A DNA stretch of 62,907 nt, counting the filler, from Rhabdomonas costata (lineage: Eukaryota), in the NCBI GenBank assembly GCA_019059605.1. It is 40 parts of 40 records of this genome, joined end to end, with 100 filler letters (N's around TTAATTAATTAA, not from the genome) between each part and the next. Parts side by side here need not be neighbours in the genome. Positions count along the whole stretch, not along the records: positions 17,376 to 18,850 come from JAHMHO010014983.1; 39 more parts are not named here. One strand, given 5' to 3'. The notes beneath the pieces were generated by a model that ran no database searches, had not been told where the DNA came from, and saw nothing but the letters and a program-made list of their open reading frames with translations. The first letter of the stretch is position 1. Each line of letters begins with the position of its first letter. Made by a program: the position numbers and the translations under genes. Shown one piece after another: positions 14,763 to 18,850 of the stretch.

Positions 14763-15443
14763 TCAGTTACTTCCTTCTGGCAGGGTCACAGACGCCGCAG
14801 ACATGGCCCGCTCTATGCCCAGAGCGGCGGCGCAGAGCCTCTCGTACTGCTCCGGGCCCAGGCGGGCAAGCATCCGGTTGAATGCGCCCTGCTGCCGGAT
14901 CAAGTTGGCCGGGGTGTCGTACTCCAGCATTTCGCCCTGCTCCAGCACAAGGATCCGGTCGGAGTCGATCACCGTGGCCAGGCGGTGCGCGATGGTCAGC
15001 ACGGTGCACTGCTTGAACTCCGTGCGGATGGTGCGCTGGATCATCGCGTCGGCGTCAAAGTCCACGGAGGCCGTGGCCTCGTCCAGCAGGAGGACCTTGC
15101 ACTTCTTCAGCAGAGCCCGGGCCAGGCAGATCAGCTGGCGCTGGCCCACGCTGAAGTTGGTGCCCTTCTCTGCGACCTGGCAGTCCAGGCCGGAACCGTC
15201 CTTCCGAATGCGCTCCGTCATGTTCACGCGGTCCAGAACGGCCCAGATCTCCTCGTCCGTGGCCTGGAAGAACGGGTCCAAGTTGCTCCGGATGGTGCCC
15301 TGGAACAGCAGAGGGTCTTGAGGGATGATCGTGATCTTGGTGCGCAGGTCGTGCATCTTCAGCAAGGAGATGTCCACGCCATCAAGAATCAGCGCTCCCT
15401 CCGCTAGCTCCACAAGACGAAACAGGGCCAGCATCACAGTGGA
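14763..15443 (-). CDS. ABCC/MRP-family ABC transporter, C-terminal nucleotide-binding domain (last exon)
   Basis: Motifs: IIPQDPLLFQGTIRSNLDPF, signature NFSVGQRQLICLARALL, Walker B LLLDEATASVD, H-loop TIAHRL. Acceptor TTTCTTACAG| falls just after the Walker A Lys. Ends in TGA. Confidence 0.96.
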   Translation of the reverse strand, partial: STVMLALFRLVELAEGALILDGVDISLLKMHDLRTKITIIPQDPLLFQGTIRSNLDPFFQATDEEIWAVLDRVNMTERIRKDGSGLDCQVAEKGTNFSVGQRQLICLARALLKKCKVLLLDEATASVDFDADAMIQRTIRTEFKQCTVLTIAHRLATVIDSDRILVLEQGEMLEYDTPANLIRQQGAFNRMLARLGPEQYERLCAAALGIERAMSAASVTLPEGSN

Positions 15444-17375
15444 CTGTAAGAAAGAAATTACAGTGCTGATAAGATAAACAAGCTAGCTTTCTTCTTGGCA
15501 ATGGATATGCTTCTAAACAAACGAGATGTGCTTCTCATTGTTCCATCTTTTCTGGAAAAAAAAAGGACAAGGTTTCACCTAATTTCCTTCCGATAAGTCT
15601 TTATCGATACATCTTCAACCAACCCGTTACGCCATCCGCAGCGAACTGGGACAGAAATGAGAAACACAAAGCCCACATAAAACCATTAAAAAAATAGGTG
15701 NNNNNNNNNNNNNNNNNNNNNNNNNNNNNNNNNNNNNNNNNNNNTTAATTAATTAANNNNNNNNNNNNNNNNNNNNNNNNNNNNNNNNNNNNNNNNNNNN
15801 TGCAATCGAATCGTTGAACGTTGCTACCTGAGTGTAGAACAGTGAGCCTTACCGAAGCCCTTAAAAGCACTACGCGCAAAATGCGCACGCTTCCATCTTC
15901 AGCTGCTCACCCTGACCTACAGCCACCTGAAGGTCACGGTCGAACGCCATACCGCCCGACGTTTCTCCTGCCGTCGATCTTCTGAGCTTCGAGGGTCGGG
16001 AGCGACCGAGGCACTTTTGCCTTCCCCCTGAAACAAGCAAAATGCATGGCGGATTTGCAAGAACCTTCCGGGGGTCCAAATCCCCCCATCTGACACATCC
16101 CCCCACTACCGGAGGGAGTGTCTCCTGCGAAGCTAGAGAAGAGGAGTGTCTTGTCTGCTCAGTTGGCGACCTTCAATGCTCGGTTCATATTAGGGCCTGT
16201 TGAGGATGCTGTATTCAGACAAATGGCTTGCTATGTAATATAAGGTACCACTGCCCATCATCATAAAAGCACATGCCTATGACATATCACCGGTAAAGAT
16301 ATCGCGAAAAAAAAACACCCCTCCAAAAATCATCCTCTCCATCTTTCCTTTCTCACAGTGTGCGTTTTTACACACCCAACTAGCTGATGGTGTCCTCATT
16401 GGCTAGGTCCTATCCGTTGTCATAAAGCGGAGGCGTAAAGCTCAATCACTAATTGCGAGCGTCCTACCCTCCCAGGCTTTCCGTACGTCCGTCCTTCACT
16501 AAGCAAGGTCTTCTTTCTGCAAAAGGACTCGCGATTTCAAAATAGACCCAATTCAGAAAATACATATAAAATCCAGCCGCAGCGTTTCAGTCTTCTCCTC
16601 AGCGGAAGCACTGGCAGCGTTGGCTTCCCCCTGTGTGGCTGTGGTGGTGCAATGTGACGTAATGCGCATGCAACGCATTCACCAAAATTTAACCCAGCAC
16701 AGAAATGAGACAAAAGTTAGAATGGCGCGTGCGGAGGAAACATGCGGACACGCGCATCAAGAGGGGTTCTCGTATACCGCCTTGCGTTCTTCAGCGGCAG
16801 AGGAGACAGAGGCATCAACAGCAGTAGGAGGTTCAACCTGGAAGTTCCCGACACATGGGCAAAAACAATAAAACTTCCAAAACTTTAGGACACACTTCGA
16901 GATCAACACAAATCATGTCCAATTGCAAGCAGTTAACTGTTGTGACATTCAACAGAGAGTAGATGGAAACGAAAGGACCGACACATTCGGAATACTCGAT
17001 TACAACACACTTGGATGAAGATAGCAGTGTGAAGTTGTTGTGCTCTGTTTGAAGAGAGCGATTGACAGAAACGGTTCACTCAAAAGAGACAGTGAGTCCT
17101 GAGAACCCTTCCAAGTGAGAGCAGAGAAGGACTGGGCGAAAAAGGCAAACACAGAAGGTCCAATCAATGGACAAACGGTAATAGTGACAACATTCCAAAC
17201 TGCAAAAGGAGGGGGAGGGGGACTTGCGCCGAAAACGACAACAGAAATGAGGCGAAATGTGCCGTTCCAGGCCCTNNNNNNNNNNNNNNNNNNNNNNNNN
17301 NNNNNNNNNNNNNNNNNNNTTAATTAATTAANNNNNNNNNNNNNNNNNNNNNNNNNNNNNNNNNNNNNNNNNNNN

Positions 17376-18850
17376 CCTTACCCCAAATGGCAAAATGCGC
17401 CATCTTGCTCAATGGAGGGTTACTCTTAATCCTGTGTTGAATTGATCCATGAGAATACAGTTGATCGGCTTAGATCGGCGCCTCAACGTGCCATTGTCTT
17501 CCAAGAACAGAGGTTATTTCCAGTACTGCCGATCTCGCCTCAGTCTTTTCAGCTTTTTATACCACGAGCCATCCGGACAGTACGGTGCAACCAACAGTAC
17601 CCTGCTCCGGTTAGCGAAACTTTTGTCAAACACCTCGTCCAACAGCGACCACGGATGATTCGCAAAAAGGATTTGATCCGGTACCCAGTGGTAGTTGAAG
17701 GCGTTGTAGGCCTCGGCCTTCCGGTCCTCCGGATCAGCTGAATAGTACCTGCTCAATTGGCGATGTTTTCGGCTTGCAAACAGATCCATCTGAGGAACAA
17801 GACAAAAGTTCTGGCAGATTGCCAGGAACAGTGTGGGACACAGCATCACATCCTCCTAAATTTCAAAGTTGGGATGCGGTTCACATGCAATCTTTATGAG
17901 CGCGGAAGTGCCCTGCTCAGTCAGATCGCGCTTCCACACTGAAGTGGCCTAAACTGCTGTGCGAGCGGCGCACAGTCACTGGATAGTACCAATCCCATGC
18001 ATCGCTCCACAACTGGAAGTGGAGCAGCCTCTTCCGGTGGGTAGGGTTGGAGATGAAGCACAATGACATCCAAATAGAATCGCACCACTTTGTGGGGAAT
18101 GGTCGGTCGCTTCCTGATCATCTCAGTGTGGACACACTGCAATGCATACACCATAAATGGGTCATACTCATGAACGGCATTGATGTCCCATTGCGAGTTG
18201 CTTTCCTCACAATTCTGGTACACATCCAGTTCAGCAGGCGCATCGTGAGGTTGGAAGTCCTGATCCACGGCTTGCTGTTGGTGATTGAAATCTCCCAGTG
18301 TAAACCTCAGTGCTTGTTCCAATTCCCGTTGTTCCTCTACTTGAAGAACGGTGTCATCAGCATGCTCATTCGTGGTCAGCTGGCCTACGGGGTCCATCTC
18401 CCTCGTATAGAATTGAATCAGCTTGCTGTAATGGAATACGGGCCTCATCTTCTTCCGATGCTGGAATGGATGAAAATCTCAATTGTTTTATTCTTAATCT
18501 GCCCCTTGATCTTGTTAGGAGTTCCAGGGGGACATCGAGGCCCAGCTGGTTGCGATGGTGTTTCTGCTTGTTGATCAAGACGTCCTGCCCAACCACAAAT
18601 TGATAATTGGCCCGCTTGCGGTTGCCGAACTCCGCTGCCCTTTCCAGTTCATGGTACACGGCACGGTACACAAATGACCAGTCGGAGTTCAGCTTTGCAA
18701 GCCATTACTTGATAGTCACCGTGTTCTCGCCGATTAGCCTCTCCTCGTCGAATTTGTGAACGTCAAAGAAGAAGCTATGGTGTTAGCCCAGGAAGAAGTA
18801 TGGGCTGAGCTCTGTGCTTCCGAGGGGGGCTGATGGCGATCTCAACAAAC
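17376..18850 (-). mobile_element. Degenerate Ty3/Gypsy-like LTR retrotransposon fragment: integrase C-terminus, possible chromodomain, N6-adenine MTase
   Basis: FVEIAI / STELSPYFFLG*H (cf. 'VExAxN..T..SPF..xYGxHP'), NRKRANYQFVVGQDVLI (cf. 'DxxRxxxxFxVGDxVL'), MRPVFHYSKLIQF (cf. 'HPVFHVSxLKPY'). Contains frameshifts and stops. Confidence 0.75.
17440..17860 (-). pseudogene. DNA N6-adenine methyltransferase (Dam/DIRS-MT-like) domain within a retroelement, degenerate
   Basis: EDVMLCPTLF..I....VPQMDLFAS (SAM-binding-type motif, 17786-17772), YYS.DP.D..A.AYNAF.YHW, FANHPW (17660-17649; CAT is one change from CCT, giving NPPW), VLLVAPY...SWY. In-frame stops at ~17858 and 17514. Confidence 0.85.

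What the first reader, a model, noticed from the sequence alone, without database searches (positions are those of the whole stretch)
17376..18850. Ty3/Gypsy-type integrase tail followed by a DNA N6-adenine methyltransferase: candidate methyltransferase-carrying LTR retrotransposon
Seen: within one contig and on one strand, Gypsy integrase C-terminal motifs (TELSPYFFLG, NRKRANYQFVVGQDVLI, RPVFHYSKL) are followed ~550 nt later by an MTase-like domain with DLFAS and FAN(H)PW. No LTR or intergenic-looking break lies between them. Established: Dam-like domains with this DLFAS...(N)PPW signature are typical of DIRS tyrosine-recombinase elements, where they follow RNase H. They are not usual cargo of integrase-encoding LTR elements. 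Inference: an LTR family in this protist may have fused an adenine MTase to Pol, to mark its own cDNA or insertion sites or to evade silencing. This copy is dead (stops, frameshifts, NPPW changed to NHPW by one base).
Basis: partly seen in the sequence, partly recalled or inferred. Interest (0 to 1): 0.8.

Follow-up and report, generated by a model that had tools for sequence, protein, structure and literature searches.

The report
Gypsy retrotransposon with methylase and dUTPase
This short contig is a broken copy of a gypsy-type jumping gene whose integrase ends in an adenine-methyltransferase domain, a kind first described in a 2026 preprint; overlapping copies indicate that the same family likely also carries a uracil-clearing enzyme (dUTPase), a pairing not found in the papers searched.

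Summary
Observation confirmed. The finding is one whole 1,475-base contig, a decayed copy of a Ty3/Gypsy LTR family with at least 40 copies in this genome. Overlapping stop-free frames of other copies put integrase, SH3 tail, acidic linker and methyltransferase in one frame, with NPPW intact in 7 of 14 copies. A purine tract and a ~1.6-kb LTR follow the stop. This is no chimera and no nested DIRS. About seven related families in the genome keep the domain under purifying selection (dN/dS about 0.1), and intact metagenomic polyproteins have the same layout. The kind is known: DAM-LTRs, bioRxiv 10.64898/2026.05.21.726589. This scan also found the integrase-methylase junction before on other contigs of this genome. 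Added here: tiling links this family to a dUTPase (gag-PR-dUTPase-RT-RH-IN-MTase). No single contig holds both, and I did not find the pairing in print. The domain folds closest to the RNA cap methylase PCIF1 (Z 13.0 against 9.1 for T4 Dam), so DNA as substrate is unproven. Most likely it marks the element's own new cDNA. New variant of a known kind; interest 0.35.

The parts
18642..18850 (-). C-terminal end of the DDE integrase core and following helix (broken; contig begins inside it)
   Evidence: motifs; 87.5% nt identity to open copy L005, which hits rve_3 and SH3_Tf2-1
18383..18641 (-). Tf2/Ty3-type integrase SH3 tail region (frameshifted near 18521 and 18457)
   Evidence: tblastn of the SH3 probes; indels
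17856..18382 (-). about 175-codon acidic, low-complexity linker; open and in frame with both neighbours in sister copies; no chromodomain
   Evidence: overlapping open frames L005-L011-L006 at 96-99% aa identity; no Pfam hit
17426..17855 (-). N6-adenine methyltransferase domain (DIRS/PCIF1-type 'Dam'); DLFAS 17786-17772, NHPW 17660-17649 (NPPW in intact copies); family stop codon at 17428-17426
17376..17425 (-). start of the 3' LTR region; this copy has the short junction that lacks the purine tract and the first LTR bases

Best explanation
The contig is a dead copy of a Ty3/Gypsy LTR retrotransposon whose integrase carries an adenine-methyltransferase domain at its C-terminus, which likely methylates the element's own newly made cDNA. 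Shown: integrase, SH3 tail, linker and methyltransferase share one frame; a purine tract and LTR follow; the domain is conserved across families. Inferred by tiling: the family order is LTR-PBS-gag-protease-dUTPase-RT-RNase H-integrase-methyltransferase-PPT-LTR. Inferred mechanism: Pol is packed into the particle, so both extra enzymes act during reverse transcription. dUTPase would keep uracil out of the cDNA. The methyltransferase has no target-recognition domain of its own, so it would be brought to its substrate by integrase and would put N6-methyladenine on the cDNA or RNA-DNA intermediate, so that the new insertion starts with a mark linked to active chromatin. The identity of the element is about 95% certain, the dUTPase link about 85%, and this substrate and purpose about 50%.
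For: Repeat family: 43 matches on 40 contigs at 73-91% apart from itself, 40 of 137 candidates scored. Same IN-to-MTase order on 7 single contigs of this family and 3 of other families. Five successive overlaps of natural stop-free frames run from the integrase zinc finger to the MTase stop. Intact RT-RH-IN-MTase polyproteins from elsewhere: P0173 and P0176 (PR also in P0173) and P0059. LTR edges, PPT and a TGGTAGCAGA primer site. Between-family dN 0.13-0.2 against dS 1.4-2.2, and synonymous saturation in 355 of 378 pairs with the window's family. NPPW in 26 of 41 genomic stretches; D, F, A, PP and W at least 90% conserved in 48 homologues. Confident Rossmann MTase model, pLDDT 96, whose best-scoring matches are mainly N6-adenine methylases. 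RT and MTase trees both group the C-terminal-MTase elements (SH-aLRT 96 and 89). The preprint reports raised 6mA on DAM-LTR insertions, including Euglena gracilis.
Against: The preprint's E. coli assay found no DNA methylation by eukaryotic DAMs. The best fold match is an RNA enzyme, PCIF1. PMC4738411 judged DIRS copies likely inactive. No AMT1 candidate was seen: the MT-A70 search gave 3 matches on 2 contigs, the best METTL3-like by recalled motif, in a very fragmented assembly. No single contig or protein holds both dUTPase and MTase; 4 of 13 frame overlaps between PR and IN are missing. On 2 of the 12 contigs with both probes (L082, L087) the MTase lies upstream of an integrase piece. Trees are quick searches without bootstrap.
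Confidence: 0.5

Rival explanations
1. Same element, but the domain is a PCIF1-derived RNA N6-adenine methyltransferase that marks the element's own RNA (stability, translation or packaging), not DNA.
For: PCIF1/CAPAM takes the top six Foldseek ranks (E 3e-6 to 6e-5, TM up to 0.78) and the top VIA rank (Z 13.0, rmsd 2.5 over 134 of 144 residues). Next come RNA methylases at Z 9-10; T4 and E. coli Dam score 9.1. The PCIF1_WW Pfam rings on several homologues. Motifs align in order with a PCIF1-family protein (weak, probability 16%). PMC4738411 places DIRS MTases in the PCIF1 clade. PCIF1 also acts weakly on uncapped and internal adenosines (PMC8931429 abstract). The negative DNA assay in E. coli fits.
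Against: The domain lacks PCIF1's helical domain, which confers cap specificity, and its WW domain. Fusion after integrase suggests it travels with cDNA. 6mA is raised on DAM-LTR DNA in three species. A shared fold does not fix the substrate.
Confidence: 0.25
2. The domain is kept as a non-catalytic nucleic-acid or SAM-binding module of integrase (a targeting tail in place of a chromodomain).
For: PMC4738411's view that DIRS copies are inactive; negative assay; it sits where chromoviruses have their chromodomain, and its RT falls among chromodomain-bearing relatives.
Against: The catalytic NPPW and the DLFAS motif are the most conserved columns, which binding alone would not need.
Confidence: 0.2
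3. A DIRS element nested behind a gypsy integrase, or an amplification or assembly chimera.
For: The MTase clade is nested among DIRS-type domains. The preprint itself raises nesting or artefacts for Euglena.
Against: One shared frame across many copies. No DIRS RT, RNase H or recombinase probe hit any of 93 loci. A DIRS RT query found only 26-36% matches; 16 of the best 20 are gypsy RTs. Intact fusions exist in other organisms. PPT and LTR follow the stop directly.
Confidence: 0.02

Closest known systems
DAM-LTR retrotransposons (Fernandez-Moreno et al., bioRxiv 10.64898/2026.05.21.726589; main text read whole, figures and supplements not seen)
   Same: Ty3/Gypsy pol carrying a DIRS-derived Dam-like domain with an NPP catalytic triplet and a small five-strand fold; a Euglena DAM-LTR/DIRS group is named.
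   Different: Here the domain is at the C-terminus after the integrase SH3 tail, with no chromodomain and no DNMT, and the family appears to carry a dUTPase (0 mentions in the preprint's text). Whether it is the Euglena lineage could not be tested. The preprint derives the domain from prokaryotic Dam; the fold here is closest to PCIF1.
DIRS1-type retrotransposon MT domain (PMC4738411 passages; DIRS-type proteins P0004-P0007, P0104)
   Same: Same domain family and motifs; the clade is nested among them.
   Different: DIRS have RNase H directly before MT and a tyrosine recombinase; this family has a DDE integrase and direct LTRs with PBS and PPT.
PCIF1/CAPAM cap-specific adenosine N6-methyltransferase (PDB 6irx, 6irw)
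   Same: Best structural match (Z 13.0); same order of motifs.
   Different: Only the catalytic core is present; 14-17% identity; no helical cap-binding or WW domain.
dUTPase-bearing gypsy elements: PosPlaTy3-5 of Postia placenta (PMC2864245 passages); bdelloid Juno, Vesta, TelKA (PMC5408684 passages)
   Same: dUTPase between protease and RT.
   Different: No methyltransferase is mentioned for them in the passages read; other hosts.

Membership tests
Ty3/Gypsy LTR retrotransposon | pol order PR-RT-RH-IN | tested here: met
   Pfam on open copies; order on L136 and by tiling
Ty3/Gypsy LTR retrotransposon | RT groups with Ty3/Gypsy RTs | tested here: met
   nearest named hits are Ty3/gypsy polyproteins; 99 support against DIRS, quick tree
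Ty3/Gypsy LTR retrotransposon | direct LTRs with PBS and PPT | tested here: met
   same sequence after the MTase and before gag (L074 vs L304, L300, L115); PBS-like TGGTAGCAGA on 3 contigs, near-matches on 2; purine tract on 6. Seen on separate contigs; tRNA-iMet match is recalled
Ty3/Gypsy LTR retrotransposon | target-site duplication around a whole element | not testable with these tools
   no contig spans an element
DAM-LTR (2026 preprint) | Dam-like domain with NPP triplet inside a Ty3/Gypsy pol | tested here: met
DAM-LTR (2026 preprint) | host usually encodes AMT1 | tested here: inconclusive
   MT-A70 search: 3 matches, best METTL3-like by recalled motif; 104,289-contig assembly
DAM-LTR (2026 preprint) | raised 6mA on insertions | not testable with these tools
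   needs long-read modification data
Euglena DAM-LTR/DIRS lineage | groups with E. gracilis DAM and RT sequences | not testable with these tools
   no such sequences were returned; the preprint's figures and supplements were not seen
EpiLTR / chromovirus | chromodomain (and DNMT for EpiLTR) | tested here: not met
   no chromodomain from SH3 to stop; stop, PPT and LTR follow the MTase
DIRS | RNase H directly before MT, tyrosine recombinase, DIRS-type RT | tested here: not met
PCIF1/CAPAM | catalytic fold and motif order | tested here: met
PCIF1/CAPAM | helical cap-binding domain and WW domain | tested here: not met
   144-residue domain aligns to 492-656 of 6irx only; no such Pfam hit in the linker
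PCIF1/CAPAM | N6-methylation of RNA | not testable with these tools
   needs biochemistry

The most novel reading that the evidence does not exclude
The retrotransposon 'Dam' is a stripped PCIF1 core that methylates the element's RNA or RNA-DNA hybrid inside the particle, not duplex DNA. It defines an old gypsy clade with a C-terminal methylase that has radiated into about seven families in this genome, and at least one family pairs it with a captured dUTPase: a transposon that both cleans its nucleotide pool and writes a base mark on its own genome.
Probability: 0.25. Interest if true: 0.7.

Novelty: new variant of a known kind. Interest (0 to 1): 0.35.

Why it matters
It independently confirms a kind of element described only in a 2026 preprint and removes, for this genome, the preprint's own doubt about nesting or assembly artefacts: the fusion is in frame, bounded by PPT and LTR, and under purifying selection across families. 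It points to intact natural polyproteins (P0173, P0176, P0059) for biochemistry. It offers a testable reason for the failed DNA-methylation assay: the fold is PCIF1-like, so RNA and hybrids should be tried. The dUTPase plus methylase layout would be a new combination, though each part is known separately.

Tried and rejected
Pfam on the window's own fragments: 0 of 5. Sequence search of PDB with the MTase profile: 1 hit, a DUF4827 protein, judged spurious; PCIF1 not found by sequence. Within-family dN/dS shows only neutral decay (singletons 0.97, shared 0.94 for the MTase), so selection could only be tested between families. Metagenome scan with the MTase alignment could not run. With the RT alignment, 0 of 78 loci carried the MTase and 1 of 78 a dUTPase; the close relatives were 1-2.6 kb contigs. 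Cluster look-up gave no organism names for 10 homologues. ESM Atlas gave unnamed eukaryotic clusters and one Dam-bearing cluster at 14%. Sequencing runs: no RNA holder listed; three runs of one sample, as contigs, cover all 30 bins, but no listed piece spans the contig and they may be the source, so they are not used as support. AMT1 not found (inconclusive). dUTPase origin unresolved: 4 of 60 branches starred. An apparent LTR edge shared by L145 and L149 proved to be a variant upstream sequence. The careful MTase tree did not finish; the quick tree is reported. ApT is not enriched (0.94 in element, 0.83 in window). Not-in-print claim: 'dUTPase, adenine methyltransferase, retrotransposon' gave 1 unrelated-looking paper (listing only); 'dUTPase, methyltransferase, retrotransposon, euglenid' gave 0; 'dUTPase, LTR retrotransposon, Gypsy' gave 37, 25 listed, 2 read in passages. 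The preprint's figures and supplements, not seen, may show this layout.

Full report
Observation. The window is a string of contigs of about 1.5 kb joined by spacers; the finding is one whole contig, G000:C14983. Its own fragments match no Pfam family (0 of 5).

It is a repeat family, and the fusion is real. A DNA search of the genome gave 43 matches on 40 contigs, from 40 of 137 candidates scored. Twelve contigs among the 93 loci then held had both an integrase and a methyltransferase (MTase) hit. Ten have the order integrase then MTase (7 of this family including the window's, 3 of other families); two (L082, L087) have the MTase upstream of an integrase piece, probably tandem or deleted copies, not resolved. 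Natural stop-free frames overlap without a break from the integrase zinc finger to the MTase stop: L063, L050, L030, L005, L011, L006, at 79-99% amino-acid identity. These frames hit Integrase_H2C2, SH3_Tf2-1 and, below cut-off, rve and Dam. No DIRS RT, RNase H or recombinase probe hit any of the 93 loci. A DIRS RT query against the genome found only 26-36% matches, and 16 of the best 20 are gypsy RTs.

Whole element. Walking upstream gave RNase H, RT with YIDD, a trimeric dUTPase (Pfam E 1e-24), an aspartic protease and a gag region with a CCHC knuckle. Contig L136 holds the knuckle, protease, dUTPase, RT, RNase H and the linker before integrase, and L137 is collinear with it. The chain L136-L096-L050-L005-window overlaps at 84-90% over 320-760 bases. 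Other families differ from this one to synonymous saturation in the MTase, so such a chain is unlikely to change family. Three contigs join RT or RNase H to the MTase or its linker through internal deletions (L109, L141, L148). Still, no contig or protein holds both dUTPase and MTase, and 4 of 13 frame overlaps are missing, all between dUTPase and integrase. The link is inferred, at about 85%. P0166 (protease-dUTPase-RT, 73% identical in RT) and L229 show the dUTPase layout in other samples. Downstream, six copies have a purine tract right after the MTase stop, and two contigs begin to match just after it with unrelated flanks. The same sequence ends in CCGTCA about 1.6 kb later and is followed by TGGTAGCAGA (3 contigs, 2 near-matches) and then the gag leader on 5' copies, or by unrelated flanks on others. 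That this primer site fits initiator tRNA-Met is recalled. Thirteen of 18 junctions counted, the window's among them, lack about 33 bases that include the purine tract.

Wider clade and selection. The MTase query gave 150 matches from 150 scored of 473 candidates. Forty-one longer stretches fall into about seven families; 26 of 41 keep NPPW, 7 of 14 in the window's family. Between families dN is 0.13-0.2 against dS 1.4-2.2 for the closer pairs, about 0.1; within the window's family changes are neutral. So the domain was conserved in active lineages, and the copies decayed after insertion. Among 48 database homologues scanned, 10 have integrase or its SH3 tail before the MTase; the first DIRS-type protein is at rank 77 of the 150 listed. 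Of 120 RT relatives, 2 end in this MTase (P0173, P0176) and 1 has a distant N-terminal one. In quick trees the genome's MTases and 11 of 12 integrase-linked ones form one group (support 89) nested among DIRS types, and their RTs form one group (96) among gypsy RTs, many with chromodomains. This fits one old capture followed by radiation; supports are SH-aLRT only and long DIRS branches are flagged.

Fold. The model from a 48-sequence alignment has pLDDT 96.4. PCIF1/CAPAM is the clear best match in both searches (Foldseek E 3e-6; VIA Z 13.0, rmsd 2.5, 134 residues), ahead of rRNA N6-methylases (Z 9-10) and T4 and E. coli Dam (9.1). PMC4738411 (passages) already placed DIRS MTases in the PCIF1 clade and thought them inactive. 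Here the DLFAS and NPPW columns are the best conserved, which argues for catalysis. The cap-specific helical domain (bioRxiv 10.64898/2026.10.22.757692, passages) is absent.

Mechanism. Most likely (50%): the MTase rides on integrase in the particle and marks the new cDNA or hybrid with N6-methyladenine, as the May 2026 preprint proposes, while dUTPase keeps uracil out (role assumed from retroviruses, PMC2864245 passage). Rivals: RNA methylation (25%), non-catalytic binding (20%), nesting or chimera (2%). Against the best reading: the preprint's negative E. coli assay, the PCIF1-like fold, and no AMT1 seen (inconclusive). Evasion of 5mC silencing is weakly supported: CpG>TpG is 0.046 against 0.031 at other C.

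What is known. bioRxiv 10.64898/2026.05.21.726589 (main text read whole; figures and supplements not seen) describes DAM-LTRs, with five lineages including one in Euglena gracilis. dUTPase between protease and RT is known in fungal and rotifer gypsy elements (passages). PMC6338049 (passages) lists DAM for DIRS only. PMC11417388 and PMC8931429 (passages and abstract starts) were read for PCIF1 activity. The pairing of dUTPase and MTase was not found in searches or in the preprint's text. Earlier notes of this scan reported the integrase-MTase junction and dUTPase-bearing gypsy fragments separately in this genome; whether those contigs belong to this family was not checked.

Verdict. Observation confirmed; interpretation supported but already described as a kind. 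The dUTPase-plus-MTase layout and the case for a non-DNA substrate are the additions. New variant of a known kind, interest 0.35.

Noticed in passing
family copies, e.g. L001-L030, L151-L179; other MTase families L036-L047: Decay is dominated by C:G to A:T transversions (0.060 per site against 0.032 for C>T), highest in CCC and CCT (0.11); other families show the same order (0.037 against 0.023). This explains the recurring NPPW-to-NHPW change.
   Followed up: partly
window 17405-17430; L004, L008, L021 against L285, L278, L287, L074: A large subfamily (13 of 18 junctions counted) lacks about 33 bases covering the purine tract and LTR start, yet is multicopy; it may use another plus-strand primer.
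   Followed up: partly
L338 (G000:C7707), L339 (G000:C4559), L266: A second gypsy family of the same RT type carries a dUTPase after its protease; this dUTPase groups apart from the window family's, near cellular enzymes, hinting at two captures (weak support). Whether it has the methylase is unknown.
   Followed up: partly
L180, L181, L182: Three PCIF1-family open frames of 19-21% GC in a genome of about 50% GC; probably giant-virus DNA in the assembly.
   Followed up: no
protein P0166: Labelled as a dUTP diphosphatase of a bacterial MAG (Azonexus sp.) but is a gypsy protease-dUTPase-RT polyprotein; probably eukaryotic DNA in the bin.
   Followed up: no
proteins P0099, P0188: Other placements of the domain: right after an aspartic protease (P0099) and at the N-terminus of a chromodomain-bearing pol (P0188).
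   Followed up: no
L082, L087; L145, L149: Two contigs have the methylase upstream of an integrase piece; two share a variant sequence upstream of the LTR's middle part.
   Followed up: no
window 15000-15445, minus strand: A GC-rich exon of an ABC transporter nucleotide-binding domain on a neighbouring, unrelated contig (read from the sequence; family label recalled).
   Followed up: no
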